NCBI GenBank assembly: GCA_041650755.1
Contig: JBAZKN010000001.1
Coordinates: 238,886-302,885 of the forward strand
DNA: 64,000 nucleotides
Origin: Patescibacteria group bacterium
GTDB lineage: Bacteria; Patescibacteriota; Patescibacteriia; UBA1558; GWA2-36-10
Reading direction: 5' to 3'
Shown here: in pieces, positions 1 to 25,399 of the stretch
How positions within the stretch are numbered: the stretch's first letter is position 1
How the letters are laid out: every line of letters begins with the position of its first letter
Position numbers and translations under genes: made by a program
Notes under the pieces: model-generated
What the model was told of the DNA's origin: nothing
Seen by the model: only the letters and a program-made list of their open reading frames with translations
Database searches by the model: none

Positions 1-628
1 ATTCGGTGTAGGCACCGCCGTCATCGCAGACTTCAGACAAAACTAATACCGCGCTACAAGAGCTGTTACAATAATCACTGCCGCTTTGCGTAGTGCCGTC
101 TCCGCAACCCTCGGTATCTGTATCGCCATCGTCGCATACCTCGGAGCCCTCCACTACCCCATCACCGCAGATTGTCGCACCGGCATTGTACCGGGTGATA
201 TTGTCACGATAAGAATAAATGGAAATCGGTGTGGTCGAAACAGCAATTTGGGCAATCACTTGCCGATTCCAATTGCCCACTGCCGAGGTGGTGGTAGCGG
301 TTGAGGTAACATATTTATATCCATCCATAATGCTAGATATTTGATATGCACAAGCAACACCGACAGTACTGATAGAGTAAGACCCTGATACAGTAGTACT
401 GGAGGAAATGCGCCACAAAGCATCATCAAGACAAGCATCAATATTATTGCTTACCTTAATTGCTTCAGAAACTTGATAATTTGATAAGGAATTAGAAGTA
501 TTTACCAGAGCAATAATCACGCTGGAAACAATTATTAAACTAGTGACCATGATTACCACCAGCAAAGCAATAAAACCCTGGTTTGACGTCTTTAATAGAC
601 TTAATAAATTTTTTATATACTTTAACAT
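1..628 (-). CDS. Pilin-like (minor pilin/pseudopilin-like) protein with Cys-rich CGDG/CDDG repeats; partial, with the C-terminus beyond the window start
   Basis: Not in the ORF track because no stop falls in the window. Manual minus-strand translation from ATG at 628-626 gives MLKYIKNLLSLLKTSNQGFIALLVVIMVTSLIIVSSV..., a prepilin-like leader plus hydrophobic helix (G|FIALL, no Glu+5). Further on come ...ICGDGVVEGSEVCDDGDTDTEGCGDGTT...SEVCDDGGAYTE, matching the CxxCGDG/E.CDDG cysteine-rich repeat type. The frame is open through to position 1. It starts 4 nt after the stop of the upstream pilin gene. Confidence 0.5.
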   Translation of the reverse strand, partial: MLKYIKNLLSLLKTSNQGFIALLVVIMVTSLIIVSSVIIALVNTSNSLSNYQVSEAIKVSNNIDACLDDALWRISSSTTVSGSYSISTVGVACAYQISSIMDGYKYVTSTATTTSAVGNWNRQVIAQIAVSTTPISIYSYRDNITRYNAGATICGDGVVEGSEVCDDGDTDTEGCGDGTTQSGSDYCNSSCSAVLVLSEVCDDGGAYTE

Positions 629-631
629 ATA

Positions 632-1912
632 TTAATTACCGGCCGATTGCAAAGCCCAAATTTCCTTATCGGTCAAAGCGCGCCCGTAAATACGGAAGTC
701 ATCCATCGTACCTTCAAAATTATAGCCGATTCGAGGATAATCAGCCGTTGAATCATTTACCAAAAAGGGCAGGGATGAAGCTGTGGTAGTGCTCACCCCG
801 CCAACTCCTTTTTTGAAAATCAGCATCTTGGCGCTATCATTGGGTTGGTCATAAACTATGGTAATATTATAAACCGTAGCGTCATCAACAACGCCAGCCA
901 CATCAAACACCGATTCACAAGTGGTGCCATCACAAAGATAAAAAACCATTTCACCCCAAGATTCTAGATTATAAAAATAATAACCCTTGATGCTGCTCGC
1001 GTTTTTATCGATAAAGGTGTGTTCAATTTCACCTGGGCTATCTGTCTTAAACCACACCGAAATTGTAAAACTGTTGCCAAGATTTAATTTTTCTGGATTA
1101 TCCACAGAACAGCTGTCTGAATCTGAAACATTAAAATCAAAAGCTTTGCTGCTGCCATTAATCAAAGGATCCACCGAAGATGGCCCGCCAGTACCGGTAC
1201 AAGTCAAATTATAGCCGCTAATACTATCTGCAGCCGTAGCTGTGTCTGTCTCATCAAATTTCCACCAAGAAATCAGGCCGCTAGGTTGCTCATTGCGCAA
1301 AACCTCTGTGCTGGTGGCGGCCGAACTGGCCTGCAAATTTACTTGGCCGGCAGATGGAACACTGACTTTGACATGGGTGGTAATACTCCTGAAACCATCC
1401 AAAGTACTGGTGGCTGTCGAAGTAGCAAAAGTCAAATCTGTATTGGTAACCATTAAATCCGGCCCGGTCAGCCAATAGCTATTGCCGGCTGTAGCTGAAC
1501 AAGCGCCATATTGACCATTGTTGGTAATATTAGGATAGCAGGTCATTTTTATCCGGTTACTAGATATGGTGATTTTCACACCACCCCCATTTTCCACGCA
1601 AGTACCCGGCAGCCAGGTGTCATTATTAAAATAAAGAGCTAAAATCGGCGGCGTCACCCCAAAACTAGAGCAATCGCCACTAGTGTCTTTCAAAAAACCG
1701 TCGGCGTTGCGTATCAAATAGCTGATGATATTTAAAGACAGGCGGCGATCCCTAGAAACATCGATATTTGAGCCCAGTTTACTGGTGGTACGGCCCAAAG
1801 TCATGCTAAACTCTATCACCGATGTCAAGATAATGCCAACAATGGCCAAATACAAAATTGTCTCAATCAGAGTAAACCCCGTTCTATTATTTTTAAAAAA
1901 TTTGGCTGGCAT
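632..1912 (-). CDS. Type IV pilin-like protein (426 aa) with C-terminal LamG/concanavalin-like domain
   Basis: N-terminus MPAKFFKNNRTG|FTLIETILYLAIVGIIL is a classic prepilin cleavage/methylation motif (G-F-T-L-I-E) plus TM helix. C-terminus ...TMDDFRIYGRALTDKEIWALQ matches the Laminin_G_3 signature. Confidence 0.65.
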   Translation of the reverse strand: MPAKFFKNNRTGFTLIETILYLAIVGIILTSVIEFSMTLGRTTSKLGSNIDVSRDRRLSLNIISYLIRNADGFLKDTSGDCSSFGVTPPILALYFNNDTWLPGTCVENGGGVKITISSNRIKMTCYPNITNNGQYGACSATAGNSYWLTGPDLMVTNTDLTFATSTATSTLDGFRSITTHVKVSVPSAGQVNLQASSAATSTEVLRNEQPSGLISWWKFDETDTATAADSISGYNLTCTGTGGPSSVDPLINGSSKAFDFNVSDSDSCSVDNPEKLNLGNSFTISVWFKTDSPGEIEHTFIDKNASSIKGYYFYNLESWGEMVFYLCDGTTCESVFDVAGVVDDATVYNITIVYDQPNDSAKMLIFKKGVGGVSTTTASSLPFLVNDSTADYPRIGYNFEGTMDDFRIYGRALTDKEIWALQSAGN

Positions 1913-1915
1913 ATA

Positions 1916-4900
1916 TTATTTAAAATTCCATTTGACTGAATATAAAGTTGGCGCCTGTGAATTACTGTTACAGTTAGTCATATCCACCTTATAGCGCAAA
2001 TAGCGCTTATGATTCAAAGTCACGGGCGTACTGCTGGTATATATACTGGCGCTAACATCGCTAAAAACGTTGGAAACCACACTGGAAAAAGCTGAACTAT
2101 CTGAAGCCTCCATGGTAATGCTCAAGCCACAACCGGACGGCACGTTTTGCTCCACCGTCACGCTGCGCAATTCTTTGTCGGCCGAACCGAGATCATAAAT
2201 AGAAGAATATATATAGCCCGGCGACTGATAGCCGGAAGCGGCCGCTTCTTCGCCAATGCTATAAAAGGTCGAAGTTGAATTTATATTATTATAGCCGGTA
2301 GTCATCCAGCCTGCACTGCGCAAAGTCAGCGAAACTCTAAATTCATCCAACTCCCCTTTGAAAAAATAATCAGTAAGAGAATACCATCTGCCTATAACCC
2401 CGTCATATGTCTCACCAATAGATAGGCCGACTGATGTAGTGGCTAGGCTAGTATCTGCCGCGGTATTAAGATAAAACTGATAACCCACATCTCTATCGGC
2501 TGTCAAAGCAGTGTAGGTCCAAGTTGAATCATCCGCTGTTATGGCACTGCTATAAAAATTACCCAACTGCGCGTGATTATCATTGCCCATGCCAAAACGT
2601 AATTTTCTTAAAGTAGGATAATAAGCAAACATCCAACCATCATCATTACTAAAATCACCATTACCAAAATATATCAGGCCGTTGGAGGTACTCACATAAG
2701 TTGCCGATGGCTTGACCCAAAACTCTACTGTGAAATCATTGGTCGTCTGATCTTTATCAGCGTTCTTCTCAACTGTCAAATAGTCATAACTACCGTCAAA
2801 GCTCTGGCCACGGCCTATTTTACCAGAAGATCCAGTCGGTGCATTGACCCCATATTTGAACCAGCCGTTGCTGCTAGTCAAGCTTGTACTCACTCCGCCA
2901 ACACCGACATCATTCATATGGCTGACTATCTGATAATTATTGCTCCAAACGCCATCAACGTTCTCTTGGGTGCTGGTAATATTTGGATTGCCGTAAAACA
3001 TGTAAATAGTTGTATTGGTAGCTAAAGACGGAATTTTCACCCAAGCCACCAATTCTCCATTGGTCGGATTATAAGTTTCTATTTCATGGTCCAATACAGT
3101 ATTACCGTCTGAATCAGAGGCAAAAATAATATCATAACCGTTTTCATTATATACCTTGCCGCCGTTGGCAACGCTTTTTAGATACTCTTGCGTCTCAGAA
3201 ATCACCACCGGAAAATCAGTGTGCGGCCCGCTTGATACTGTGCTGCCCAAGCCCAAAGTGATTGCCCGCTTATAGTCAAAAGTACCGCCGGTTGCCTTGG
3301 TAAAAGACCTGCCGATAAAATGCAGGTTTACCAGATTACTGGTGGCTACGTGATCATGCACAAAAAATCCATAAGAAGTCGTGCTATACAACATCTGATC
3401 GTAAGTATAGTAATTGGAATGCGTATTAAAGGTGGTATTACTCATGCTAGCATCCGTCGGACTTGCCCTATTGGTAATATCAATGGCATAAACGCTGGCC
3501 GGGCTATAATAATGCAGAAAAGCCATATTGGCTCGATCAGAAGTCACTTCAGCATATGACTGGCTGGTCGGTACGTTATAGGAGCCAATTTTTGTAAGAG
3601 AACTTCCCTGATCTTCTACAATCATAAATTCCTCAGTAGAAGATTCTGTGCCCAAAATAAACCTATTTTTACCGGATGAAACTTCTAAGAGCTCAATATC
3701 TGTATAGTCAGCCGTTGGACTACTGTCAACATAGGCATAAGTAGAGGTAGAGCTAAACCACTGTTTGTCAGAATCAAAACCCATTTTAATAAACTCTCCA
3801 GAATTATGGTCAGTCACTAAATATATATAGGGATTAGCCGCTGATTCATCCAAATAGACTTGATTGATCGTATAGCCAGATGCTGGAGTCAAAACTTGCC
3901 CGGCATTCAATAAAGCAAGCGTTGCTCCGCCATTGGATATGGAAAAAGTATAACCATAGCCATAATTATCAAATACATATAGTCTATCAGCGGCAGCATT
4001 GATAACCATGCTGGTAATATACCAAGTAGCGCCCGGGGGATTCAAATCATAGCAATCATTGACGGTATCTAGACTAAGATCATTTAAATCAGTTATGCAA
4101 ATCACATCCTCCGTAGTGGTAGCCAACCGCCTTCCCAAGTATGCGTAATCGCTATTGGGATTAATGGCCATAGCCATCATATGCCACCAGGATAAAGGTA
4201 TTTTAAATTCTGGCCTGATAATGCCGGCGGCTGCCCGAGAAATATCGTATTTAACAAAATCAAAATTTACCGTCCCAATGATATAAAGGCTTTTCCCGTC
4301 CGGCCCCAAATAATAATTATAAAAATCTTCCCAAGCTTGATATTTGGCCGTCACATCCTGCGTAAGATCTGCCCAGGCAGACCAGCTCATTTCCGTGCCG
4401 GAAATTTGTGAGAGGGTTAATTCACCGGACGTAGAAGTATTGACATTACTAAAACTGGACGAGGCCATAGCGGCATCGCTCCAAAATTCACGCGCACCAT
4501 TACCAGACCAATCTGTCTGCAGCCAAGATTGGCTGGACCAATTACTAAAATAAGAAGTCAAAGTATAATCGCTGATACCAAAACCAGATACAGTGACTAA
4601 GACTTTTTTAGTATCCGGATCATTGGTCCCACCGCTGGCAACAATATTATAGCTAGTATCCCTCTGCACATCACTGACTACAATAATCCTAGTTAGAGTA
4701 CCCAGAGTATTGCTGGTACCGCTATACTCCCACAGACCGCTGGCGTTTTTCACCACGCCTTTGTTGCCAGCGCCAGCCGCCGCCACAAAAGCCTGCCAGC
4801 TATTATCCCTCATGCTTTTGACTGCCTCCATGCCTTCTTGCGCAAACTGAACTACCACCTGCCGATCGCCGCCACCAAAAAAATTTCTATATGAACTAAG

Positions 4901-5005
4901 CACTACATAGGTCACTCCGGCTGCCAGAATAGCAAAAATGCCGATCGCCACCAAAAGCTCGACCAAAGAAAATCCTTGATTCTGTTTTTTGCGTCTAAGT
5001 GCCAT
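1916..5005 (-). CDS. Giant type IV pilin-like protein (1029 aa) with LamG-like domain
   Basis: N-terminus MALRRKKQNQG|FSLVELLVAIGIFAILAAGV is a prepilin motif with Glu+5. The rest is a large extracellular region containing FWVKPS...GELDEFRVSLTL, which is LamG_3-like. Confidence 0.65.
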   Translation of the reverse strand: MALRRKKQNQGFSLVELLVAIGIFAILAAGVTYVVLSSYRNFFGGGDRQVVVQFAQEGMEAVKSMRDNSWQAFVAAAGAGNKGVVKNASGLWEYSGTSNTLGTLTRIIVVSDVQRDTSYNIVASGGTNDPDTKKVLVTVSGFGISDYTLTSYFSNWSSQSWLQTDWSGNGAREFWSDAAMASSSFSNVNTSTSGELTLSQISGTEMSWSAWADLTQDVTAKYQAWEDFYNYYLGPDGKSLYIIGTVNFDFVKYDISRAAAGIIRPEFKIPLSWWHMMAMAINPNSDYAYLGRRLATTTEDVICITDLNDLSLDTVNDCYDLNPPGATWYITSMVINAAADRLYVFDNYGYGYTFSISNGGATLALLNAGQVLTPASGYTINQVYLDESAANPYIYLVTDHNSGEFIKMGFDSDKQWFSSTSTYAYVDSSPTADYTDIELLEVSSGKNRFILGTESSTEEFMIVEDQGSSLTKIGSYNVPTSQSYAEVTSDRANMAFLHYYSPASVYAIDITNRASPTDASMSNTTFNTHSNYYTYDQMLYSTTSYGFFVHDHVATSNLVNLHFIGRSFTKATGGTFDYKRAITLGLGSTVSSGPHTDFPVVISETQEYLKSVANGGKVYNENGYDIIFASDSDGNTVLDHEIETYNPTNGELVAWVKIPSLATNTTIYMFYGNPNITSTQENVDGVWSNNYQIVSHMNDVGVGGVSTSLTSSNGWFKYGVNAPTGSSGKIGRGQSFDGSYDYLTVEKNADKDQTTNDFTVEFWVKPSATYVSTSNGLIYFGNGDFSNDDGWMFAYYPTLRKLRFGMGNDNHAQLGNFYSSAITADDSTWTYTALTADRDVGYQFYLNTAADTSLATTSVGLSIGETYDGVIGRWYSLTDYFFKGELDEFRVSLTLRSAGWMTTGYNNINSTSTFYSIGEEAAASGYQSPGYIYSSIYDLGSADKELRSVTVEQNVPSGCGLSITMEASDSSAFSSVVSNVFSDVSASIYTSSTPVTLNHKRYLRYKVDMTNCNSNSQAPTLYSVKWNFK

Positions 5006-5507
5006 AATATACCAAGCCCACTGCCGTCACCGTAACAGTCAGCTGCTCGCCAATATTGTTTTTTAAAATAATAGTTTTATCATCATCGGAGCTTGACCAG
5101 CCAGAGATGGGATTAAAATAAAAGGACTGAATCTGGCTGCTTTCCAAATAAACGCCATTATTTATATTGACCACCCGGTCATAGCCCATATCGCGAGTAG
5201 AATAAGCAGTCCCCTTAAAAACTACGATGCAATCACCGCTATCCTGACAATAGCCATTATCATTGAGGACTTGCACTCCCCAGGCACTGCCAAAATAGCC
5301 GCTAGCGGCATAGCCGCGAGCTTCACTGATTAACTCTACGACTTCCCTGGCTTTGGCGTCCAAACTTTTTTGCGGAGTTTTGCTACCCAAGATTGAGACG
5401 CCAATGGATAACAAAATCAAAGCCACGGCTATCACGATCAAAATTTCAATCAAAGTAAACCCCGCCAGAGAAGCACTAAAATTATTATTTTTAAAACGCC
5501 TTGCCAT
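4995..5507 (-). CDS. Type IV pilin / pseudopilin (170 aa), candidate major pilin
   Basis: MARRFKNNNFSASLAG|FTLIEILIVIAVALILLSIGVSIL is a prepilin N-terminal methylation motif. It sits immediately downstream of pilC. Confidence 0.7.
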   Translation of the reverse strand: MARRFKNNNFSASLAGFTLIEILIVIAVALILLSIGVSILGSKTPQKSLDAKAREVVELISEARGYAASGYFGSAWGVQVLNDNGYCQDSGDCIVVFKGTAYSTRDMGYDRVVNINNGVYLESSQIQSFYFNPISGWSSSDDDKTIILKNNIGEQLTVTVTAVGLVYYGT

Positions 5508-5513
5508 AAAAAA

Positions 5514-6728
5514 TTAGGCTCCGGTTGCTTGGATTAATTTAAAAATCGGCTGAATAATGGAAATGGCGGCAAAAGCGACGGTCAAACCGATAATCACCAA
5601 AAGAGCCGGCTCCAAAACATTAGAAAAATTCTTAGTAGTATTATCCACATCCTCCTCATAAAAACTAGCCAAATATTCCAACACTTCACTTAAATTACCG
5701 GACCGCTCGCCCACTCTGATCATCCGATATAAAATGGAAGGAAAATATTTTCTATTACTCAAAGAGTCAGCCAAAGAATTGCCTTTCAAAATATTATGAT
5801 AAACAATGGTGATCTGCTCTTTGTAAACGGCGCTGGGCAAAGTCTCGGCCACAATTTGCAGAGCCTTATCAATGGTAATGCCGCTATTCAATAACGAGGC
5901 CATCGTGCGGCAAAACAAGGCCAGATTCATGTTGCGAGAAATTTTACCAAACAGGGGCAGCTTAAGGGCGATATAATGCAGCCACAGCTTGGTGTTATAA
6001 AAACGCAACATCACCTGAATAGCTACAAATATCAGAGCTACGCCGCCAACTACTGCCCACCAATATTTCTCCATAAAAGTAGCTGTGGTTATCAATATCT
6101 TGGTGGACAATGGCAAATCAGTGCCCAAGCCCACAAAAAATGTCATCAAGCGCGGCAAAACATAAACAGAAATTATGGCCACCAAAACGATTACCAAGAC
6201 GATAACTATCGTTGGGTAAATAGAGGCTGCCCTGATTTTATTTCTCAAGTCATAAGTCTTGTGCTGCTGGGCAGCTAATAATTCTAAGTTTTTGGCCAGC
6301 GTGCCGCCCGACTCACCGACCGCTACCATGTTGACAAATAAATTATCAAAATCGCGCGGATATTTTTTTAAAGACACCGACAAAGCATTGCCCTTGCGCA
6401 CATCAGATAAAACCTGGTTCATCCTTTGGGAAAAAAGCTGTGAAGCATTTTCGGATAAAACCTCCAGAGCTCCGTCAATAGACATGCCGGCTTTGATCAT
6501 GACGGACAAATGCTTAGCAAACATGACCTTCTCTAGCAGCCTGATATGGCCTATGGTTAAATTAAATTCTAAAACTTTATGTTTTTTATCTTGCAAAATC
6601 GGCTCCAGAGAAACAATGGTGCCCTCCTGCAAGGCCAGACGATTGCGGGCATCCACCAAGGTAGCTGCTTCCAATTTACCTTTGCTGATTTTACCCTTAC
6701 TATCGCTTAATTGATAAGCAAATTGCAT
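5514..6728 (-). CDS. pilC: Type IV pilus assembly platform protein PilC (GspF/T2SS-F family)
   Basis: 404 aa with two T2SSF-type repeats and 3 TM segments. Adjacent to pilB. Confidence 0.85.
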   Translation of the reverse strand: MQFAYQLSDSKGKISKGKLEAATLVDARNRLALQEGTIVSLEPILQDKKHKVLEFNLTIGHIRLLEKVMFAKHLSVMIKAGMSIDGALEVLSENASQLFSQRMNQVLSDVRKGNALSVSLKKYPRDFDNLFVNMVAVGESGGTLAKNLELLAAQQHKTYDLRNKIRAASIYPTIVIVLVIVLVAIISVYVLPRLMTFFVGLGTDLPLSTKILITTATFMEKYWWAVVGGVALIFVAIQVMLRFYNTKLWLHYIALKLPLFGKISRNMNLALFCRTMASLLNSGITIDKALQIVAETLPSAVYKEQITIVYHNILKGNSLADSLSNRKYFPSILYRMIRVGERSGNLSEVLEYLASFYEEDVDNTTKNFSNVLEPALLVIIGLTVAFAAISIIQPIFKLIQATGA

Positions 6729-6732
6729 ATTA

Positions 6733-8418
6733 TTATTCTTTAGTTACTCTGAATACTTCTTCCATGGTGGTCTTGCCAGCAAAAGCTTTGATAAAGCCGT
6801 CCTCCAGCATACTCACCATGCCATTGGCCATGGCCTGTTTTTGAATCTGATCAGAATCGGCTCGGCCAAGAATAAGCTCCTTGATATTTTCTGATAATTG
6901 CAAAACTTCAAAAATACCCAAGCGGCCGCTATAACCGGTGTGATTACAATTATCGCAACCTTTGCCTTTATATACTCTGATTTCTTTGACCTGTTGTGCA
7001 TCAACGAATTTATCAAGGTTAATTTGTTGGCGCAGATCATTTACTTCTTGTGGATTCAAAGTATAGCTATATATGCACTTCATGCAAATCCTGCGCACCA
7101 GGCGCTGGCCAATAATAACATTGATGGTCGAGGCCACCAAAAATGGCTCAATGTGCATATCTATCAGGCGCGGCAAAGCAGTGGCGGCATCATTGGTGTG
7201 CAAAGTAGACAAAACCATGTGGCCGGTCATGGCCGAATTGACAGCAATGCCGGCGGTTTCATTGTCGCGAATTTCTCCAACCATGATGACATCCGGATCC
7301 TGCCGCAGCAACGAACGCAAACCGGCCGCAAAAGTAAGATTGGTCATGGGGTTGACCTGTACTTGATTCACGCCATCCAAACTATATTCTACTGGATCTT
7401 CAATAGTACAAATATTTACATCCCGATGATTCAAAAGCTTGATCAGAGCATAAAGCGTGGTTGTTTTACCGGAGCCAGTCGGACCAGTGGACAAAACCAT
7501 GCCATAAGGCTTGTTGATGGCTTCAGTGACTTTGGCCAAATCCGCCTCACTCATCCCTAATTCTTCCAAAGTAAATTGCTTGCCCTGGGAAGACAATAAG
7601 CGCATCACTACTTTCTCTCCATGAATAATCGGCAAAATGGAAACCCTGATATCCACCTTGATACCCTCAACTTCTGTAATAATTTTGCCATCCTGGGCGC
7701 TGCGACTTTCATCGGTCCTCAACTTAGCCAATATTTTAATACGGGCCACAATCATCTCTAAAATATTTTTGGGTAGGTTGATAATATCGTACAAAATGCC
7801 ATCAATCCGAAAACGAACAACTATTTCTTTTTCGGTGGGCTCGATATGTATATCAGAAGCATGATTAATAAAGCCGTAGCTAATCACATCATCCACCAAA
7901 CGAACTACCGAAATATCTTCCTGAGTGGCTCCTTGGGCCTTGATGGCATTTTTCTGAATATTACTGACATATTCTTTTTGTATAGTCTGACGATATAAAC
8001 TAAAGCTATTATTGATTTCATAATCAGTTGAATAGAAAGGCAACACCTTATCACCCAATTTTTTTTCTAGGGCTTTAATCATCGGATAATCAAACGGATC
8101 ACTCATGGCGACCTTGGCGCCCTCGGCGTCTCTGGCAAATAATATGACTCGCTGCTTGCGCGCCACAATTTCCGGCAACAAAGTCAAAACATCCGATTTG
8201 ATATTTTCCTTGGCAAGATTAGCGTATTTAACATGTAGATTATTGGCAATCAACTGGCCTATTTCCTGGGGCTTGATTAAGTCCTGCTTAATCAAAAATG
8301 TTGCCAAATCTTCATTTTTTTCCCGAGCAGTCTTTAGAGCCATATCCAAAACATCTGGCTTAATCAGCCCAATCTTAGTGATTATTTGATAAATTTTGTC
8401 ATCAGAAAATGCTGGCAT
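6733..8418 (-). CDS. pilB: Type IV pilus assembly ATPase PilB (GspE family)
   Basis: Has a GspE N-terminal domain, Walker A LSTGPTGSGKTTTLYA, and a tetra-Cys zinc motif CMKC...CDNC. Confidence 0.9.
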   Translation of the reverse strand: MPAFSDDKIYQIITKIGLIKPDVLDMALKTAREKNEDLATFLIKQDLIKPQEIGQLIANNLHVKYANLAKENIKSDVLTLLPEIVARKQRVILFARDAEGAKVAMSDPFDYPMIKALEKKLGDKVLPFYSTDYEINNSFSLYRQTIQKEYVSNIQKNAIKAQGATQEDISVVRLVDDVISYGFINHASDIHIEPTEKEIVVRFRIDGILYDIINLPKNILEMIVARIKILAKLRTDESRSAQDGKIITEVEGIKVDIRVSILPIIHGEKVVMRLLSSQGKQFTLEELGMSEADLAKVTEAINKPYGMVLSTGPTGSGKTTTLYALIKLLNHRDVNICTIEDPVEYSLDGVNQVQVNPMTNLTFAAGLRSLLRQDPDVIMVGEIRDNETAGIAVNSAMTGHMVLSTLHTNDAATALPRLIDMHIEPFLVASTINVIIGQRLVRRICMKCIYSYTLNPQEVNDLRQQINLDKFVDAQQVKEIRVYKGKGCDNCNHTGYSGRLGIFEVLQLSENIKELILGRADSDQIQKQAMANGMVSMLEDGFIKAFAGKTTMEEVFRVTKE

Positions 8419-8427
8419 AAATTTTAT

Positions 8428-8850
8428 TTAGCTATTATGATTATTATTTTTGGCTTGCTTGCTTTGTGTCTTGGAGTTCAAATATTGGCTGACTTTATCA
8501 ACCAGCAAATCCAAAGTGATGCTGTCTTTTTTTAAATAATCAACCGCCCCCAAGTCTATGCCTTTTTTTCTGTCATTTTCCTGGGCCAGATTAGACAGGA
8601 TAACTACCGGAATATTGTGCGTCTTGGGGTTGTGCTGTAATTCAGTCAAAACCTCAAAGCCACTTTTCTTGGGCATGATCATATCTAAAATAATCAGATC
8701 TGGATCTTCCAATTGGGCTTTTTCTAGACCCTCTTCACCATCGGCTGCCAAACTGACCTGATAGCCATGATCGGTCAATTCAGCCTGATAGACTTTGCGC
8801 AAAAAAGCATCATCATCAACAAATAATATTTTTGCTTTAGCTTCTGACAT
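8428..8850 (-). CDS. CheY-like response regulator (receiver domain only; PilH/PilG-like)
   Basis: ILFVDDDAFLRKV...DLIILDMIMPKKSGFEVL is the receiver-domain acidic pocket with the phospho-acceptor Asp. Confidence 0.8.
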   Translation of the reverse strand: MSEAKAKILFVDDDAFLRKVYQAELTDHGYQVSLAADGEEGLEKAQLEDPDLIILDMIMPKKSGFEVLTELQHNPKTHNIPVVILSNLAQENDRKKGIDLGAVDYLKKDSITLDLLVDKVSQYLNSKTQSKQAKNNNHNS

Positions 8851-8856
8851 GGATTT

Positions 8857-10422
8857 TTAAATTAATTTATTAACATCTAATATCAAAATTGGCCGGCCAG
8901 CTGAAGAAATGCCAACCCCCCTGATAAAATCCAAACTGCGTAAACTAGTCGGCGATTTTTTCATCACCAATTCGCTCTCCTTCAAGTTGCCGGCAATCGG
9001 TAAAGCATATCGACCAGATTGGTTTTTGATATACAAAACATATTTAGCCAAAGGCGGCCAATGCGGTAAGGCCAAAACTTTATTTAAAGACAAGAGCTGC
9101 AGCCGTCGCTGATTGCGCACAAAAAATTTATCTTTACTAAAATCTCGTAAATCATCTAGCTTCACTAATTTATCTACCTGTGCCAGAGGTATAGCTAGCG
9201 ACCAATCACCCACCTGAAAAGTAATGCTTCTAAATACAGACAAAGTGAGCGGCAAAGTAATAGTAAACACCGTACCCTTGTTGGCCTGGCTACTGACGCT
9301 GATCTGGCCGTGTAAACCCAAAACCTTGCTTTTAACCAGGCTCAAGCCCACGCCCCGACCGGCATTGGTGCTGATCGTGCTTTGACTGGACATACCAGGC
9401 TGAAACAACAGGTCAGCGAGCTGATTGGTGGTCAATTTTTTGGCCGCCCGGGCATCAATCATTTTGTGCTTAATGGCCAGCTCTACAACTTTTTGCCAAT
9501 CAATGCCACGGCCATTATCAGATACTTTTATTACGATCTGATCTGATTCCAAAATGGCGCTAACCTTGACTTGACCATTTTTTTGTTTCAGCCAGATACC
9601 ATGGACAATAGAATTCTTTACCAACTGGACAACTACGATCAAAAGTTCATCTAGGGTAGACTTATTGAGAGATAATTTATTATCTTCGATAATAAAATCA
9701 ATTTTTTTATCTTCATCTTTGGCTACCGACCGCACTAAATATGGCAAAGAAGAAAAGGCTTGGGCCAAAGATACAATGCGCAAACGTTCTAGCTCGCGGC
9801 GCAAATTATTCACTAGGGTATCAGCCGACACACAATCAGCCAGCAGCTGACTCTGGTTTAGTTTTATAGCTTTGGCTTTTATGGCCATGATGTTGACCAA
9901 GAGGTCATCGACTATATTTTGTACCTTATCAAATTTATCATCTGTGACAGTGATTTCGCTGCTTTTAGACACAGCTACTATGCTAGGAGTGGCTGCCTTG
10001 CCGGTCTTGATTTTGTCCTTTGTTTTGGCAGATTTTGGAGCTAATGGCCGCTGCAAAATATTTTGCAAATCTCCCCTGCTTTGGGAAAAATCCAGCTGTT
10101 TGTCATTTTTTTGAATAGACTGCAAATTAGCATTCAATAAATCAACCTGACGGAATAATAAATCTAAAATGTCTTTACTTAAAATAAGGTGGCCGGCACC
10201 GGCTGCTTGAACCACGCTTTCTATATCATGGACGAAATCAACTGTCTGCTTATAGCCCATCATAGCCGCTGAACCTTTCATTGAATGCAAAGACTGGGCT
10301 AAACGCGTTACAGTAGCCTGATCTTGGGGATTCTTATCTAAAATTAAAAGCCAATCAGCTAATTCTTTGAGTTGCTCTTGGGTGCTGGTCAAATATAAAT
10401 CTTTATACTTTTCGCTAATCAT
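8857..10422 (-). CDS. CheA-like histidine kinase (Hpt - dimerization/HATPase_c - CheW domain; ChpA/PilL-like)
   Basis: N-terminal Hpt motif AQSLHSMKGSAAMMGY. Also has an N-box LVKNSIVHGI, a G1 box DNGRGID, a G2 box GRGVGLSLV, and a C-terminal CheW-like domain. Confidence 0.8.
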   Translation of the reverse strand: MISEKYKDLYLTSTQEQLKELADWLLILDKNPQDQATVTRLAQSLHSMKGSAAMMGYKQTVDFVHDIESVVQAAGAGHLILSKDILDLLFRQVDLLNANLQSIQKNDKQLDFSQSRGDLQNILQRPLAPKSAKTKDKIKTGKAATPSIVAVSKSSEITVTDDKFDKVQNIVDDLLVNIMAIKAKAIKLNQSQLLADCVSADTLVNNLRRELERLRIVSLAQAFSSLPYLVRSVAKDEDKKIDFIIEDNKLSLNKSTLDELLIVVVQLVKNSIVHGIWLKQKNGQVKVSAILESDQIVIKVSDNGRGIDWQKVVELAIKHKMIDARAAKKLTTNQLADLLFQPGMSSQSTISTNAGRGVGLSLVKSKVLGLHGQISVSSQANKGTVFTITLPLTLSVFRSITFQVGDWSLAIPLAQVDKLVKLDDLRDFSKDKFFVRNQRRLQLLSLNKVLALPHWPPLAKYVLYIKNQSGRYALPIAGNLKESELVMKKSPTSLRSLDFIRGVGISSAGRPILILDVNKLI

Positions 10423-10840
10423 AAATTTTGACTGCGGAAAAAATCTCCTCTGGATTCAAAATATATATTCTACTGGATTTATTTTTTAAATAGGTCTTAA
10501 AAATCTTCTGGCTGTGATCTCGAAAAATATTGCCAGCCGTCAGCGTGTCTTGTCCGGCTGATACCAAAAATGCGTAATACTCATCATGATAATTAAATAA
10601 CAAGGCCCGTTGGCTAAGTATCGGCTCAAGACCCAATAGCTTATCCATACGCAAAACTGTGACCAGTTGACCATTGTGATAAGTAATGCCGGCTAATCTA
10701 TCGTCTAATTTTGGTATCGATAAAATATATTCACAGCTAAAAAATTGGCTGGCAGTTGTCAAATGTATGGCATACAACTGATCGTGTAATTTGAAAGTCA
10801 CAAATTTATCCAATTTTTTGGGCATTTTAATTCCTGCCAA
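10415..10840 (-). CDS. CheW-like coupling protein (PilI-like)
   Basis: 141 aa with a single CheW-like fold (FVTFKLHDQLYAIHL...GQLVTVLRMDKLLGLEP). Overlaps cheA by 8 nt. Confidence 0.65.
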   Translation of the reverse strand: MAGIKMPKKLDKFVTFKLHDQLYAIHLTTASQFFSCEYILSIPKLDDRLAGITYHNGQLVTVLRMDKLLGLEPILSQRALLFNYHDEYYAFLVSAGQDTLTAGNIFRDHSQKIFKTYLKNKSSRIYILNPEEIFSAVKIYD

Positions 10841-11969
10841 CTAACTGATTAAGAGTGTCTGTCACCTTATTTAAGGCCAAAGATGAACGATTTAAAGATT
10901 TGGTCACGGCCAACTGATTTTGGATAACTTTATTGATATCATCGGCCTGCTTGACTAACAGCTTTGACTGCTGGCTAATATTTCTGATCACGCTATTTAC
11001 TTTACCGGCTTCTTGGTGGGTCGAATTGGTTTCATCATTAATCACGCCCACACCGGCGGCAATATTGCCAACATTACTGATAATCTTGCCAAAAAAATTG
11101 AGTGTCTGACTGACAACATTGATGCTTTTATTTGTTTCCCGCCACTCAAAAACTGCCGATTGCCTTGATTGCTCTATCTGCCGATGCATATCCTGAGCTA
11201 AATTTTGAATGCTGGAGGCTGCCTGTTCACTGGCAATATTCAAATCTCTGATTTGAGCCACTAGGCCGGTAAATTCCTCGCCAAAGGCCGCTTTATTGGC
11301 TTCAATAGATATATTGAGGCTAAAAAATTTAGCTGTATCAGCTACTATGCTAACCCGTTTGGCAATATCTGAAACTTTGTGGGCATATTCATCCAGCGCT
11401 TGGCTTAACTTCTGATTTTCAGTCAATAAATTCTTGACTGCCGCTAGGCTAGCCAAAGCCTTCTGTGATTTATCTGATCCTTCCTTGGCTAAATTATCGG
11501 CCCGATTTGTATCGTTGGCCATAGCTTTGGTTTTTTGGGCTATTTCATCCAAAGATGAGACCATGCCGGATAAAGCTTGACTACCGGATTTTAGGCCAGT
11601 TTGTTGTTGCTGGCTAGAAACCAACAAAAACTGTGAGATTTGATTATTGGTTTGACTAATGTCAGATAAGCCTTGGATTGATTTTAATAATAAATTTACT
11701 ACTTTAGATAGTTCACTGACAGAAACCTGTATAGGAGCAGTCACGACCTTGGATAAATGCCGCGTAGCCAACAAGGACAACCACAAGACCAAGGCTAGAG
11801 CCACAAAAATACCAATCCAAATAAGCCCGGGCAGATTTATCAGACGAAATATCGGATTAGTTTGGCCGGCAATATGAAAACTAAGGAGCAAAGCCACTAT
11901 TGGCAATAGAGCCACTCCAATAAACCAAACAATAAACTTGAGGTAAATTTTGGTCTCAACTATTTTCAC
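10827..11969 (-). CDS. Methyl-accepting chemotaxis protein (PilJ-like), GTG start
   Basis: N-terminal TM hairpin, then a long coiled-coil MCP signalling domain with a Q/S-rich methylation-helix region. The start codon is GTG (RC of cac at 11967-11969). Confidence 0.75.
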   Translation of the reverse strand: MKIVETKIYLKFIVWFIGVALLPIVALLLSFHIAGQTNPIFRLINLPGLIWIGIFVALALVLWLSLLATRHLSKVVTAPIQVSVSELSKVVNLLLKSIQGLSDISQTNNQISQFLLVSSQQQQTGLKSGSQALSGMVSSLDEIAQKTKAMANDTNRADNLAKEGSDKSQKALASLAAVKNLLTENQKLSQALDEYAHKVSDIAKRVSIVADTAKFFSLNISIEANKAAFGEEFTGLVAQIRDLNIASEQAASSIQNLAQDMHRQIEQSRQSAVFEWRETNKSINVVSQTLNFFGKIISNVGNIAAGVGVINDETNSTHQEAGKVNSVIRNISQQSKLLVKQADDINKVIQNQLAVTKSLNRSSLALNKVTDTLNQLVGRN

Positions 11970-12004
11970 TTTATTTTTGTTTTTGCCTTATCAATCTGGT
12001 CTTT

Positions 12005-12033
12005 ATTATAACATATTTCACCACTTAAAACAA
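12005..12033 (-). promoter_or_regulatory. Putative sigma70 promoter of the chemosensory/pilus operon: -35 TTGTTT, 17-nt spacer, extended -10 TGTTATAAT
   Basis: Minus-strand TGTTATAAT is the RC of plus attataaca at 12005-12013. It lies ~36 nt upstream of the GTG start at 11969. Confidence 0.35.
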
Positions 12034-12054: not shown

Positions 12055-12098
12055 GACAAATAAAAAACCACCAATCCAGCTAGTCAAATGGGTGGTTT
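12055..12098 (-). terminator. Putative intrinsic terminator after the O-antigen-ligase-like gene
   Basis: 8-bp stem AAACCACC (12065-12072) pairs with GGTGGTTT (12091-12098) around an 18-nt loop. On the minus strand it is followed by TTTTTTATTTGTC. Confidence 0.35.
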
Positions 12099-24022: not shown

Positions 24023-25399
24023 TTACATTAATTTCGATTTAATAAACTTAAACGCTTTTTTAAATATTTTGGGATTCAAAAAATAAAATCTGCCAAACTT
24101 AAATCTATTTTTATAATGCCAGCGATAGATTCTGGCTATAGTAGGGTGTTGTTCGACACCCACTCGACCAGCATATTTTTCTAAATTTTCCCAATCAAAA
24201 TCTTTGCCTTCTTGCTCTCTTAGCATCTCATAAAGCTGTGTGCCAAAATAAGGGATAGGCAAAGCCGGCTCAACCATAGTGGTTAAATTATTATCGGCCA
24301 AAAATTTCTCCGTCTCTCTGATAGTCTGTTTATCTTCACCCGGCAGATTGATAATAGAATACAAGCCAATCACTATGCCGTGCCTTTTTAAAATATCAAC
24401 ACACTTCTTGGTCTGTTCCATGGTGGTTTTCTTATCGGCTTTGTCTAGTACTTTCTGCGAACCGCTTTCAAAACCAACATTGATGCGCACGCAACCCGCC
24501 TGTTTCATCTTGATAAGCAATTCCTCATCAAGGTCGCTCACCCTGGCGTTGCATCCCCATTTGATGTCTATTTTCTCCTCAATCAGCAGATCGCAAATTT
24601 TTCTCACTCTAGCCTTATCAATCACGAATTCCCAATCCTGAAAATAAATGCCCTTGACCCCAAAATTATTGACTAAATATTTTATCTCTGCCAGCACGCT
24701 CTCCGGACTACGGGTAATGTAAAACTTATCCATCATTACCTTCAAGCAATAAGTGCAATTAAAGGGACAGCCGCGCGAACTCAAGATGATAGAAAATGGC
24801 TGGGGAATATCGCCGAAAGTGTAGCGATACTTATCCATCGGCAGCATATCATAAGCTGGAATTGGCAAGGCGTCTAAATTTCTGTTGCGTTCAGCCGGTG
24901 GATTATTGATCACCCGGCCGTCTTTGATATAAGAAATGCCCGCAACCCGGCTGACATCACCCTGCTCTGCCAAAGTTTTGACCAAGTCTAATACTATAAG
25001 CTCCGGCTCATTGCGCACCACAAAATTGACTTTGCTCTTTTCCAAAATCCACTCTGGCATGACTGAGCCATGCGCGCCAGTCAAAATAATACACGGGATT
25101 TTGGCAGCTTCAATAGTTTTGACTATATTGCCCACCAAAAGCTTGATATGGGCATGGGACGGCACTTCCCAGCGATCAACCGGCGTAGAAGTTAAAATCA
25201 AAATCTCGGGATTAAACCGCTTAATTTCTTCAATAGTATCTTCTAAGCTAAGATTCAAAACATTGGCATCCAATAATTTCACCTCATGATCGGGCTTGAG
25301 CAAGCTAGCGATATAAGCCAAAGCCAAAGGCTGCCTCTTGCGAGACATTTTAGTCAGCTTTCCTGAAAACAAGAATGGATTTAAAATAAATATCCTCAT
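24023..25399 (-). CDS. B12-binding radical SAM protein (class B rSAM)
   Basis: N-terminal cobalamin-binding Rossmann region, then SSRGCPFNCTYC (CX3CX2C). Confidence 0.8.
   Translation of the reverse strand: MRIFILNPFLFSGKLTKMSRKRQPLALAYIASLLKPDHEVKLLDANVLNLSLEDTIEEIKRFNPEILILTSTPVDRWEVPSHAHIKLLVGNIVKTIEAAKIPCIILTGAHGSVMPEWILEKSKVNFVVRNEPELIVLDLVKTLAEQGDVSRVAGISYIKDGRVINNPPAERNRNLDALPIPAYDMLPMDKYRYTFGDIPQPFSIILSSRGCPFNCTYCLKVMMDKFYITRSPESVLAEIKYLVNNFGVKGIYFQDWEFVIDKARVRKICDLLIEEKIDIKWGCNARVSDLDEELLIKMKQAGCVRINVGFESGSQKVLDKADKKTTMEQTKKCVDILKRHGIVIGLYSIINLPGEDKQTIRETEKFLADNNLTTMVEPALPIPYFGTQLYEMLREQEGKDFDWENLEKYAGRVGVEQHPTIARIYRWHYKNRFKFGRFYFLNPKIFKKAFKFIKSKLM

What the first reader, a model, noticed from the sequence alone, without database searches (positions are those of the whole stretch)
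1..12033. Type IV pilus machinery and a Pil-Chp-like chemosensory module encoded as one compact operon
MCP, CheW, CheA (Hpt-HATPase-CheW, no P2), CheY, PilB, PilC and four pilin-like genes follow each other on the minus strand with overlaps or gaps of 6 nt or less. A putative extended -10 promoter sits upstream of the MCP gene. In model organisms the Chp chemosensory system and pilus structural genes are dispersed. This fusion into one 12 kb operon implies direct sensory control of pilus extension or twitching in a minimal genome. Type IV pili are proposed to mediate host attachment in episymbiotic CPR bacteria. No CheB, CheR or PilT is present in this window.
Basis: partly seen in the sequence, partly recalled or inferred. 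Interest (0 to 1): 0.6.

Follow-up and report, generated by a model that had tools for sequence, protein, structure and literature searches.

The report
Chemoreceptor-to-pilus-motor operon in CPR bacteria
A group of ultra-small (CPR/Patescibacteria) bacteria carries a stripped-down chemotaxis-type signalling chain in the same operon as the motor and parts of a type IV pilus, which suggests that a phosphorylated CheY-like switch protein directly controls when the cell extends its attachment filament.

Summary
On the minus strand, MCP, CheW, CheA (P1-P3-P4-P5, no P2), CheY, PilB, PilC and four pilin-like genes follow each other with gaps of -11 to +9 nt. They sit behind a terminator-like hairpin and a TGTTATAAT extended -10 element, and that element is present upstream of the MCP gene in 22 of 22 orthologous loci.

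The window cuts the cassette. Just past position 1 lie the rest of pilin 4, a PilM-TM fusion and a major pilin with its own TGTTATAAT, giving 12 genes over about 14.7 kb.

The cassette is not a one-off. The same gene order is found in 26 species-level Patescibacteria genomes and 16 metagenome contigs.

It resembles Pil-Chp only by analogy. The CheA has one Hpt and no receiver domain, and there is a single CheY. The 380-aa MCP has no sensor domain and no HAMP, and looks like a 44H receptor (Thermotoga/Bacillus type). No CheR, CheB, PilT or PilD was found in the window or in the ~9.4 kb read beyond its left edge.

Related operons keep CheY-PilB-PilC-pilins-PilM but change the kinase: a full Che module, a truncated CheA without MCP or CheW, a plain HisKA kinase, or no adjacent kinase. 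The conserved core is therefore CheY acting on the pilus extension machine, most likely on PilB. This is a new variant of a known kind, and I found no description of it in the searched literature.

The parts
12059..12098 (-). Terminator-like hairpin (8+4 bp stem) followed by UUUUUU, just downstream of the upstream Wzy_C gene. It separates that gene from the che-pil operon.
   Evidence: Sequence. The fold shows the hairpin in both the MFE and centroid structures. The energy z-score of the 81-nt stretch is not significant, so this is weak evidence.
12005..12033 (-). Promoter: -35-like TTGTTT (12033..12028), 17-nt spacer, extended -10 TGTTATAAT (12013..12005). It lies about 36 nt upstream of the GTG start of the MCP gene.
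   Evidence: Sequence. Exact TGTTATAAT is found upstream of the MCP gene in 22/22 orthologous loci. There are only 3 copies in the 64-kb window, all just upstream of operon starts, and almost no internal copies in orthologous cassettes.
10827..11969 (-). Minimal chemoreceptor (MCP), 380 aa. It has two TM helices joined by a ~10-residue variable loop, no sensor domain and no HAMP, and a ~44-heptad signalling hairpin with its tip at residues 228-230.
   Evidence: Pfam; family alignment; PDB profile hit to TM1143; AF2 model with pLDDT 80; Foldseek hits to McpB/YvaQ/TM1143; 76 homologues, almost all ~380 aa; conservation profile.
10415..10825 (-). CheW coupling protein, 136 aa (ATG at 10825; the TTG at 10840 is unlikely to be the start).
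   Evidence: Pfam CheW 38.7 bits; gene call on the identical contig; ortholog lengths of about 138 aa.
8857..10422 (-). CheA histidine kinase, 521 aa: P1 (Hpt, His46), a ~45-aa linker, P3, P4 and P5. There is no P2 and no receiver domain.
   Evidence: Pfam. The profile aligns to E. coli CheA P1 and P3-P5 and to T. maritima P3-P5. Invariant residues are H46, N270, D302-G304-G306, F340 and G355-G357-G359. The Patescibacteria-specific family is sharply separated from other CheAs.
8428..8850 (-). Single-domain CheY-like response regulator, 140 aa. Its stop lies 9 nt before the pilB start.
   Evidence: Pfam. D12, D13, D56, S86, Y105 and K108 are invariant in 20 orthologs. It is one of the two most conserved genes of the cassette, at 70% mean identity.
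6733..8418 (-). PilB-type extension ATPase, 561 aa, with an MshEN-like N-domain and a CxxC...CxxC zinc motif.
   Evidence: Pfam T2SSE 426 bits. PDB best hits are PilF/PilB at 385-400 bits over the full length, against PilT at about 120 bits. NCBIfam scores for GspE and PilB are similar and both below cut-off.
5514..6728 (-). PilC/GspF platform protein, 404 aa.
   Evidence: Pfam T2SSF x2, 212 bits; NCBIfam.
4995..5507 (-). Minor pilin, 170 aa (G|FTLIE, GspH-like N-terminus). Orthologs carry variable C-terminal inserts (Fib_succ_major, LamG, DUF2341).
1916..5005 (-). Giant pilin-like protein, 1029 aa (G|FSLVE, DUF2341). Ortholog length varies from 304 to 1227 aa, which makes it a candidate tip adhesin.
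632..1912 (-). Pilin-like protein, 426 aa (G|FTLIE plus a Laminin_G_3 lectin-like domain).
1..628 (-). N-terminal 209 codons of the fourth pilin-like gene (287 aa in full). It is GspK/PilX-like: hydrophobic N-terminus G|FIALLVV without Glu5. It is cut by the window edge.
   Evidence: There is no Pfam hit, and the GspK/PilX resemblance rests on my own recall of those N-termini.
12119..16475 (-). Two Wzy_C (O-antigen-ligase-like) membrane proteins of 726 and 727 aa. This is context rather than part of the operon, but a Wzy_C gene is conserved immediately upstream of the cassette in many loci.

Best explanation
**What it is.** A self-contained sensor-to-motor cassette of a Patescibacteria (CPR) clade.

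**Transcription.** One transcript, started at a conserved TGTTATAAT promoter, encodes 11 genes. These are a minimal chemoreceptor array (a sensor-less, HAMP-less MCP of about 44 heptads, CheW, and a P2-less CheA), one CheY, and the core of a type IV filament machine (PilB extension ATPase, PilC platform, four minor pilins of which two or three carry lectin/adhesin modules, and a PilM-TM fusion). The major pilin follows under its own copy of the same promoter.

**Proposed mechanism**
1. The MCP/CheW/CheA complex sets the rate of CheA autophosphorylation at His46.
2. The phosphoryl group passes to CheY Asp56.
3. CheY~P binds the extension machinery, most probably PilB, whose gene it abuts in every relative. 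PilC or PilM are alternative targets. Binding switches pilus extension on or off.
4. There is no methylation-based adaptation. The signal decays by CheY autodephosphorylation.

The output would be gated deployment of an adhesive pilus (attachment to a host or surface), not gradient-climbing chemotaxis.

**Shown here:** domain identities, catalytic residues, operon anatomy, promoter conservation, synteny, and the modular swapping of the kinase.

**Inferred:** co-transcription, phosphotransfer, the target of CheY~P, the nature of the stimulus, and the biological role.
For: **Anatomy**
- Ten genes in the window have gaps of -11 to +9 nt, and the row continues to PilM and the major pilin on the identical contig.
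- There is no excess of promoter-like sites inside the cluster and no internal TGTTATAAT.
- The promoter 9-mer is conserved in 22/22 loci.

**Competence of the signalling proteins**
- CheA has invariant His46 and N/G1/F/G2 boxes, and its P1 and P3-P5 align to solved CheAs.
- All CheY phospho-acceptor residues are invariant.
- The MCP profile, model and fold match receptors.
- PilB is of the extension type.

**Linkage**
- The gene order is identical in 26 species-level genomes at 37-57% CheA identity.
- It is identical in 16/16 metagenome contigs whose CheY is >=56% identical.
- CheY (70%) and PilB (71%) are the most conserved genes. CheW (34%) is the least conserved.

**Modularity.** PilB-anchored sampling shows REC-PilB-PilC-pilins-PilM preceded by one of four inputs:
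- a full Che module (L081, L082, L086);
- a CheA cut down to Hpt-HATPase with no MCP or CheW (L029; L083, whose PilB sequence is carried on 24 contigs);
- a soluble HisKA kinase (L085);
- no adjacent kinase (L084).
The REC keeps the same alpha4-beta5 motif (SNLGQ..D..G..LGA.DYL.K) in all of them.

**Precedent.** Chemotaxis-derived PatA-type response regulators bind PilB1 and PilC in Synechocystis (10.1101/2021.06.11.447907). Type IV pili mediate host association in cultivated CPR bacteria (PMC9894109, PMC11623550).
Against: - There are no expression or biochemical data, so co-transcription and phosphotransfer are inferred.
- The CheY target is inferred only from gene adjacency and conservation. 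In Synechocystis it is the PATAN domain, not the CheY-type regulators, that bound PilB1 (same preprint).
- The window MCP alone is 0.9 bits below Pfam's gathering score, and its hairpin tip is one residue shorter than canonical.
- No stimulus can be named. The extracytoplasmic loop is short and unconserved.
- PilT, PilD, CheR and CheB could only be excluded for the 64-kb window plus about 9.4 kb beyond its left edge, not for the genome.
- NCBIfam scores PilB/PilC/pilin about equally as GspE/GspF/GspG, so the filament could be a short pseudopilus.
Confidence: 0.65

Rival explanations
1. This is true chemotactic twitching motility, as in the Pil-Chp or Frz paradigms. The array senses external chemicals and biases cycles of pilus extension and retraction so that the cell moves along gradients.
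For: A full MCP-CheW-CheA-CheY set is present. A sister clade of the cassette has a ~620-aa MCP with a ~265-aa extracytoplasmic insert that is weakly dCache-like, so ligand sensing exists in relatives. Twitching has been shown for Saccharibacteria (PMC11623550).
Against: - The window receptor has no sensor domain and no HAMP.
- No conserved methylation consensus was found.
- No CheR/CheB and no PilT were found in the 64-kb window or in the ~9.4 kb read beyond its left edge.
- In TM7x the PilT-less pilus locus serves host association, not twitching (PMC11623550).
- Relatives dispense with the receptor altogether.
Confidence: 0.15
2. The filament is a non-motile pseudopilus of the T2SS or Com type, used for DNA or nutrient uptake or for secretion. 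The Che/REC module gates that process rather than adhesion.
For: - PilB, PilC and the major pilin score as well against GspE/GspF/GspG as against PilB/PilC/PilA, all below cut-off.
- The PilM-TM-C-terminal-domain fusion has a GspL-like architecture (the GspL comparison is from my own knowledge).
- There is no PilT in the locus.
- CPR bacteria depend on scavenged nucleotides (general knowledge).
Against: - The minor pilins carry large, rapidly varying lectin/adhesin-type modules: LamG, DUF2341, Fib_succ_major and Big_5, in proteins of 304-1578 aa. These are typical of tip adhesins.
- The major pilin has its own strong promoter, as expected for an abundant fibre subunit.
- The N-domain of PilB aligns over its full length with T4aP PilB/PilF.
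Confidence: 0.15
3. The che genes and the pil genes are neighbours for reasons other than signalling to the pilus. For example, CheY might control another target, or the upstream glycan/Wzy genes. Alternatively the che genes are relics.
For: No direct evidence exists for a CheY-pilus contact. A Wzy_C gene is also conserved next to the cassette.
Against: - The CheY gene abuts pilB in every one of more than 45 loci, whatever the kinase type.
- The Wzy gene is separated from the cassette by a hairpin and the conserved promoter.
- CheY has no DNA-binding or enzymatic output domain.
- All catalytic residues and protein lengths are conserved at down to 37% identity, which excludes decay.
Confidence: 0.05

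Closest known systems
Pil-Chp system of Pseudomonas aeruginosa (PilG/H/I/J/K-ChpA/B; Tfp class of chemosensory systems)
   Same: It is a chemotaxis-type MCP-CheW-CheA-CheY pathway whose output is the type IV pilus rather than a flagellum.
   Different: - Pil-Chp (from my own knowledge) has a giant ChpA with several Hpt domains and a C-terminal receiver, two CheYs (PilG and PilH), a PilJ receptor with periplasmic domain and HAMP, and CheR/CheB homologues. It lies apart from pilB/C and the pilin genes.
- Here there is one Hpt and no receiver, one CheY, a sensor-less and HAMP-less receptor, and no CheR/CheB nearby. Everything sits in one operon with pilB.
- The CheA and MCP are closer to T. maritima, Bacillus and archaeal proteins.
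Cyanobacterial Tax/Pix chemotaxis-like systems (PixJ-PixL-PixG/H; PatA-type regulators acting on PilB1/PilC)
   Same: It is a chemotaxis-derived phosphorelay whose response regulators act at the pilus extension motor (10.1101/2021.06.11.447907; PMC11181946).
   Different: - The cyanobacterial output uses a PATAN domain fused to the receiver. The CPR regulator is a bare receiver, or in some loci a receiver plus a C-terminal zinc ribbon.
- The cyanobacterial receptors carry photosensory domains.
- Those genes are not in the pilB operon (my own knowledge).
F1-type chemotaxis systems with 44H receptors (Thermotoga maritima, Bacillus subtilis, and the archaeal Che system that steers the archaellum, a type IV filament machine)
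   Same: - It is the best sequence and structure match for the receptor: TM1143 at E 5e-13, and McpB/YvaQ/TM1143 as top Foldseek hits.
- It is also the best match for CheA: T. maritima P3-P5 at 219 bits against E. coli at 182, and NCBIfam CheA_Halo at 235 against the E. coli type at 139.
- In archaea such a system also steers a type IV filament motor (my own knowledge).
   Different: - There is no P2 domain.
- No CheC/D/V/R/B or CheF was found nearby.
- The receptor lacks HAMP and a sensor domain, and its tip is one residue shorter.
- The output is a PilB-type assembly ATPase rather than a rotary motor.
- Class membership was not tested by phylogeny.
Type IV pilus loci of cultivated CPR bacteria (Saccharibacteria TM7x T4P-1 and T4P-2)
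   Same: Both are CPR type IV pili with PilB, PilC, PilM and several divergent pilins. TM7x locus two likewise lacks a retraction ATPase and serves host association (PMC11623550).
   Different: That paper mentions no chemosensory or response-regulator gene for the Saccharibacteria loci: zero occurrences of chemotaxis, CheY or response regulator. Here the regulator is the most constant neighbour of pilB.

Membership tests
Chemosensory core (MCP-CheW-CheA-CheY) | Receptor with an MCP signalling hairpin | tested here: met
   Pfam MCPsignal is 33.7 bits for the window protein against a cut-off of 34.6, and orthologs reach 66 bits. The family profile hits TM1143 at E 5e-13 and 5,734 receptor clusters at E<=1e-10. 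The AF2 hairpin matches receptors by Foldseek.
Chemosensory core (MCP-CheW-CheA-CheY) | CheA with a phospho-accepting His in P1, P3 dimerisation, a P4 kinase with N/G1/F/G2 boxes, and P5 | tested here: met
   P2 is absent; from my own knowledge it is dispensable in other CheAs.
Chemosensory core (MCP-CheW-CheA-CheY) | CheW, and a CheY with the Asp-Asp/Asp/Thr(Ser)/Lys quintet | tested here: met
   CheW 38.7 bits. CheY D12, D13, D56, S86 and K108 are invariant.
Chemosensory core (MCP-CheW-CheA-CheY) | Methylation-based adaptation (CheR, CheB, methylation sites) | tested here: not met
   No CheR or CheB domain was found in the scanned window ORFs or in the ~9.4 kb read beyond the window's left edge. 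No conserved methylation consensus occurs in 36 receptors. Genome-wide absence could not be tested.
Pil-Chp / Tfp-class system | ChpA-type kinase with multiple Hpt domains plus a C-terminal receiver | tested here: not met
   There is a single Hpt and no Response_reg domain, and the length is a constant ~516 aa.
Pil-Chp / Tfp-class system | Two antagonistic CheY-like regulators (PilG, PilH) | tested here: not met
   There is one receiver gene per cassette in all loci.
Pil-Chp / Tfp-class system | PilJ-type receptor with a periplasmic domain and HAMP | tested here: not met
   The extracytoplasmic loop is about 10 residues, and a single helix runs 46-227 from TM2 to the tip.
Pil-Chp / Tfp-class system | Output is the type IV pilus | tested here: inconclusive
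   This is supported only by operon structure and conserved synteny. There is no functional test.
Type IVa pilus machinery | PilB-type extension ATPase and PilC platform | tested here: met
Type IVa pilus machinery | Prepilin-type subunits (G|FxxxE): a minor pilin set and a major pilin | tested here: met
   Three minor pilins have the motif and a fourth lacks Glu5. The major pilin of 176 aa lies just outside the window.
Type IVa pilus machinery | PilM/N/O alignment proteins | tested here: met
   A 589-aa protein carries a PilM_2 domain, a TM helix and a ~175-aa C-terminal domain. It lies outside the window on the identical contig. Homology of the C-terminal domain to PilN/PilO was not tested.
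Type IVa pilus machinery | PilT retraction ATPase and PilD prepilin peptidase | tested here: not met
   Neither was found in the window or in the ~9.4 kb read beyond its left edge. A PilT-like gene is adjacent in one distant relative, L085. The rest of the genome could not be searched.
44H class of chemoreceptors | Cytoplasmic hairpin of 44 heptads (two arms of about 154 residues) | tested here: inconclusive
   The model gives helices 71-227 (157 aa after TM2) and 231-377 (147 aa). The C-arm aligns without gaps to TM1143, but the N-arm needs 10 residues of gaps. The top fold matches are B. subtilis and T. maritima receptors, which are 44H receptors by my own knowledge.

The most novel reading that the evidence does not exclude
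The sensor-less receptor monitors the pilus machine itself. It might sense the membrane pool of pilin, or load and conformation of the PilC/PilM platform, through its strongly conserved N-terminal stub and TM1. The cassette would then be a closed mechanosensory loop: pilus tip adhesin contacts a host, the array changes CheA activity, and CheY~P acts directly on the PilB hexamer to lock or repeat extension. This would be a minimal 'touch sense' for host capture by an episymbiont. It would also make the single-domain receiver a new class of direct PilB effector that different CPR lineages plug into interchangeable kinases.
Probability: 0.2. Interest if true: 0.8.

Novelty: new variant of a known kind. 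Interest (0 to 1): 0.58.

Why it matters
- CPR/Patescibacteria are usually described as lacking chemotaxis. Their type IV pili are the only experimentally supported host-attachment organelle, yet how pilus activity is controlled in them is not addressed in the papers I searched.
- This cassette offers a complete and very compact candidate pathway from receptor to extension motor. It is conserved across a clade.
- Natural 'deletion mutants' exist: the receptor lost, the kinase swapped, or the regulator alone. These point to CheY-PilB as the functional core.
- The 380-aa receptor has no sensor domain, no HAMP and no sign of methylation adaptation. This is a very reduced transmembrane chemoreceptor architecture.
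- The hypothesis is directly testable with recombinant proteins, without cultivating the organism.

Tried and rejected
- **Literature.** Searches for CPR/Patescibacteria/Parcubacteria/Komeilibacteria combined with chemotaxis, chemosensory, CheA or methyl-accepting terms found no description of such a cassette. One CPR genome paper states that chemotaxis genes are absent.
- **Sigma-70 promoter scan.** It gave no enrichment (33 sites against 33.3 expected) and missed the real candidate because its -35 matches only 3 of 6. The excess of terminator-like sites it reported (20 against 10.4) consists of weak intragenic stems without true T-runs, so I disregarded it.
- **Looser -10 pattern.** TGNTANAAT is not enriched (19 against 19.4), so its two intragenic hits in the cluster are taken as chance.
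- **Terminator hairpin.** Its energy is not significant against shuffles, so it is kept only as a shape argument.
- **NCBIfam.** Nothing scored above curated cut-offs, so no equivalog names can be assigned.
- **PilB N-domain.** The c-di-GMP motif scores below cut-off (21 against 38 bits). By eye the key Arg, Gly and Gln positions are replaced, so c-di-GMP control is not proposed.
- **Horizontal transfer.** I considered this and rejected it: GC of 0.39-0.44 matches the rest of the window.
- **Rfam and tRNA scans.** Both were empty.
- **Structure prediction.** I could not predict structures for the PilM fusion or for ortholog alignments taken from loci, because of tool restrictions. I did not attempt a CheY-PilB complex, since there is no multimer tool.

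Full report
**1. What is in the window**

The left 12 kb holds an unbroken row of minus-strand genes. Pfam assigns them as follows:

| Gene | Coordinates | Size | Pfam result |
|---|---|---|---|
| MCP | 11969..10827 | 380 aa | MCPsignal 33.7 bits (cut-off 34.6) |
| CheW | 10825..10415 | 136 aa | CheW 38.7 bits |
| CheA | 10422..8857 | 521 aa | Hpt, HATPase_c, CheW domain |
| CheY | 8850..8428 | 140 aa | Response_reg 89.5 bits |
| PilB | 8418..6733 | 561 aa | T2SSE 426 bits + MshEN |
| PilC | 6728..5514 | 404 aa | T2SSF 212 bits |
| Minor pilin | 5507..4995 | 170 aa | N_methyl |
| Giant pilin-like | 5005..1916 | 1029 aa | N_methyl + DUF2341 |
| Pilin-like | 1912..632 | 426 aa | N_methyl + Laminin_G_3 |
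| Fourth pilin-like | 628..1 | cut by the window edge | no hit |

- Gaps between successive genes are +1, -8, +6, +9, +4, +6, -11, +3 and +3 nt.
- The rest of the window holds no PilT, PilD, PilM, CheB or CheR domain.
- That remainder comprises two Wzy_C genes, a ~25-kb glycan-synthesis cluster, an ECF sigma factor, HtrA, SecY and a ribosomal-protein operon.
- In the ribosomal operon S5 runs straight into L15 with no L30 gene. This is typical of CPR bacteria.
- The CheA sequence is identical to NCBI MFA5126614.1 from a 405-kb 'Patescibacteria group bacterium' contig.
- GC content gives no sign of foreign origin.

**2. The cassette is cut by the window**

A Logan contig is identical to the window over 11,912 bases. 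It shows that the row continues past position 1:
- the fourth pilin-like gene, 287 aa in full;
- 19 nt later, a 589-aa protein with a PilM_2 domain, a low-complexity linker, one TM helix and a ~175-aa C-terminal domain;
- a 134-nt spacer;
- a 176-aa pilin with a perfect G|FTLIE prepilin motif, the likely major subunit.

MacAB-type efflux genes, hrcA and grpE follow. The full unit is 12 genes over about 14.7 kb.

**3. Transcription signals**

- Between the upstream Wzy_C gene and the MCP gene lie a hairpin with a U-run (12098..12059) and TTGTTT-17 nt-TGTTATAAT (12033..12005).
- The exact 9-mer TGTTATAAT is found within 160 nt upstream of the MCP start in 22 of 22 orthologous loci. The background for the looser pattern TGNTANAAT is about 0.05 per 160 nt.
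- In the 64-kb window it occurs three times, always on the coding strand just upstream of an operon start: the MCP gene, a methyltransferase gene, and the ECF sigma gene.
- A further copy precedes the major pilin gene.
- Inside the cassettes it is essentially absent.
- This supports one long transcript from MCP to PilM plus a separate pilin transcript. No transcript data exist.

**4. The signalling proteins**

*CheA.*
- It belongs to a tight family of about 515 aa, found only in Patescibacteria/Parcubacteria/Komeilibacteria MAGs. The family scores >=379 bits and is sharply separated from all other CheAs, the next of which scores 223 bits.
- The family profile aligns P1 (residues 3-108) and P3-P4-P5 (138-516) to full-length E. 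coli CheA, and it aligns to T. maritima P3-P5. Only P2 has no counterpart.
- His46 and the N, G1, F and G2 boxes are invariant.
- P3-P5 scores higher against T. maritima (219 bits) than against E. coli (182 bits). NCBIfam ranks the archaeal CheA model (235 bits) above the enterobacterial one (139 bits).

*MCP.*
- The receptor family has 76 members in the 90%-identity database, almost all 380 aa long.
- Its profile hits TM1143 at E 5e-13 and thousands of receptors in an exhaustive search: 46,961 at E<=1e-3 and 5,734 at E<=1e-10. Only 23 clusters reach E<=1e-30.
- The AF2 model (pLDDT 80) has TM1 at 2-36 and a short loop. One uninterrupted helix runs 46-227, from TM2 straight to the tip, so there is no HAMP. 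The turn is at 228-230 and the return helix at 231-377.
- Its best structural matches are B. subtilis McpB/YvaQ and T. maritima TM1143, ahead of Tsr.
- The extracytoplasmic loop is the least conserved part. The first 19 residues are as conserved as the signalling tip.
- No methylation consensus is conserved.

*CheY.*
- It keeps D12, D13, D56, S86, Y105 and K108 in all 20 orthologs aligned.
- It has no output domain, and its nearest solved relatives are generic receivers.

**5. The pilus proteins**

- PilB aligns over its full length with the T4aP extension ATPases PilF and PilB at 385-400 bits, against about 120 bits for PilT. NCBIfam does not separate it from GspE.
- The four minor pilin-like proteins keep conserved ends but vary greatly in length. 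One ranges from 164 to 545 aa and another from 304 to 1227 aa. They carry LamG, DUF2341, Fib_succ_major or Big_5 modules. This is what one expects of exposed tip adhesins.

**6. Comparative evidence**

- A scan of one genome per species found 26 loci with a CheA 37-57% identical to the window's. Every locus that extends far enough has the order MCP-CheW-CheA-CheY-PilB-PilC-pilin-pilin-pilin-pilin, often preceded by a Wzy_C gene. PilM and one or two pilin genes follow wherever the sequence continues.
- A metagenome scan seeded with CheY gave 16 contigs with a CheY >=56% identical. All 16 show part of the che-pil order. CheA lies directly upstream of CheY in 15 and PilB directly downstream in 14; the exceptions are cut by contig ends. 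Weaker hits were ordinary response regulators.
- Mean identity to the window across 15 loci is PilB 71%, CheY 70%, PilC 57%, MCP 52%, pilin 47%, CheA 44% and CheW 34%.

**7. Natural variants**

I sampled the neighbourhoods of progressively more distant PilB homologues. Together with L029, they show a constant block of REC-PilB-PilC-minor pilins-PilM-pilin. The input in front of it varies:
- (a) The full Che module. In several loci the CheY carries a C-terminal zinc ribbon. In a sister group the receptor is ~620 aa, with a ~265-aa extracytoplasmic insert (L081, L082, L086).
- (b) A CheA reduced to Hpt-HATPase, with P3 and P5 lost and no MCP or CheW. This occurs in L029 and in L083, whose PilB matches Parcubacteria GW2011_GWA2_36_10. 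That PilB sequence is carried on 24 contigs.
- (c) A soluble HisKA-HATPase kinase, with a PilT-like gene divergently upstream (L085).
- (d) The receiver alone (L084, named Buchananbacteria).

The receivers of all variants share the alpha4-beta5 motif SNLGQ..D..G..LGA.DYL.K. The receiver-pilB pair is therefore the conserved functional unit, and the chemoreceptor array is one of several interchangeable inputs.

**8. Interpretation**

- The most economical reading is a phosphorelay whose single-domain regulator acts on the pilus extension machinery, most likely on PilB.
- There is no sensor domain, no HAMP, no sign of methylation adaptation, and no retraction ATPase in the locus. This argues against classical gradient sensing. 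It favours on/off gating of an adhesive filament.
- The stimulus is unknown. Intramembrane or machine-state sensing is possible. However, conservation of TM1 is also seen in the sensor-bearing sister receptors, so it may be structural.
- Alternatives that remain open are a pseudopilus function and true twitching taxis (if pilT, cheR and cheB lie elsewhere in the genome).

**9. Relation to known systems and novelty**

- Functionally this parallels Pil-Chp and the cyanobacterial Tax/Pix systems, in which regulators bind PilB1 and PilC (10.1101/2021.06.11.447907).
- It fails the architectural tests for the Tfp class. By sequence and fold it is nearest to Thermotoga/Bacillus/archaeal-type components.
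- Type IV pili drive host association in cultivated Saccharibacteria (PMC9894109, PMC11623550), but no regulator is mentioned there.
- No paper in the searched library describes chemosensory genes in CPR pilus operons.
- Automated annotation already labels these genes 'CheA' and 'methyl-accepting chemotaxis protein'. The novelty therefore lies in the system-level picture: a minimal array wired in one operon to PilB, conserved in a CPR clade, with modular input swapping.

Noticed in passing
window 12005-12013, 35442-35450, 47733-47741 (all minus strand); L080 about 14004: The exact 9-mer TGTTATAAT marks operon starts: the MCP gene, a methyltransferase gene, the ECF sigma factor gene, and the major pilin gene outside the window. 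It looks like this lineage's strong extended -10 promoter and could be used to map transcription units genome-wide.
   Followed up: partly
window 12119-16475 and 38450-40783; glycan cluster 16551-41444: There are three ~700-aa Wzy_C (O-antigen-ligase-like) paralogs, and one or two of them are conserved directly upstream of the che-pil cassette in many relatives. They sit beside a ~25-kb cluster of glycosyltransferases, methyltransferases and three B12-binding radical SAM enzymes (24023-25399, 30574-32013, 32016-33461). In an organism without an outer membrane these may be O-oligosaccharyltransferases that glycosylate pilin or S-layer protein (PglL/TfpO-like). This was not tested.
   Followed up: no
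window 41580-45344 (minus strand): A 1254-aa ORF has no Pfam hit. It lies in the only part of the window with positive GC skew and the highest GC (0.44-0.46, at 42-46 kb).
   Followed up: no
window 55731-56877: Ribosomal protein S5 runs straight into L15 with no L30 gene between them. This is a known hallmark of CPR/Patescibacteria and agrees with the NCBI label of the source contig.
   Followed up: partly
L021, L024, L026, L029, L081, L082, L083, L086 (CheY genes): In a subset of the cassettes the CheY carries a long low-complexity linker and a C-terminal CxxC...CxxC zinc ribbon (Pfam Zn_Ribbon_1). This is a possible extra docking module.
   Followed up: partly
L029 6362-7297; L083 8229-9233: A CheA is reduced to Hpt-HATPase (311-334 aa), with P3 and P5 deleted, and the MCP and CheW genes are lost. 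It is still followed by CheY-Zn-ribbon, PilB and PilC. The PilB sequence of L083 is carried on 24 contigs, so the variant is not an assembly artefact.
   Followed up: yes
L085 7487-9999; L084 773-1159: More distant relatives of the operon use a soluble HisKA histidine kinase in front of the same receiver-PilB pair (L085, with a PilT-like ATPase divergently upstream) or no adjacent kinase (L084).
   Followed up: yes
L082 5510-7399 and proteins P0329-P0338: A sister group of the receptor is about 613-634 aa, with a ~265-aa extracytoplasmic insert between TM1 and TM2. The insert has only a faint dCache_1 similarity (E 0.008). The 380-aa form in the window therefore looks like a sensor-less derivative or relative.
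   Followed up: partly
L080 12168-13937 (outside the window, identical contig): PilM is fused through a low-complexity linker and one TM helix to a ~175-aa extracytoplasmic domain. The architecture is reminiscent of GspL or of a PilM-PilN fusion. The C-terminal domain has no Pfam hit.
   Followed up: partly
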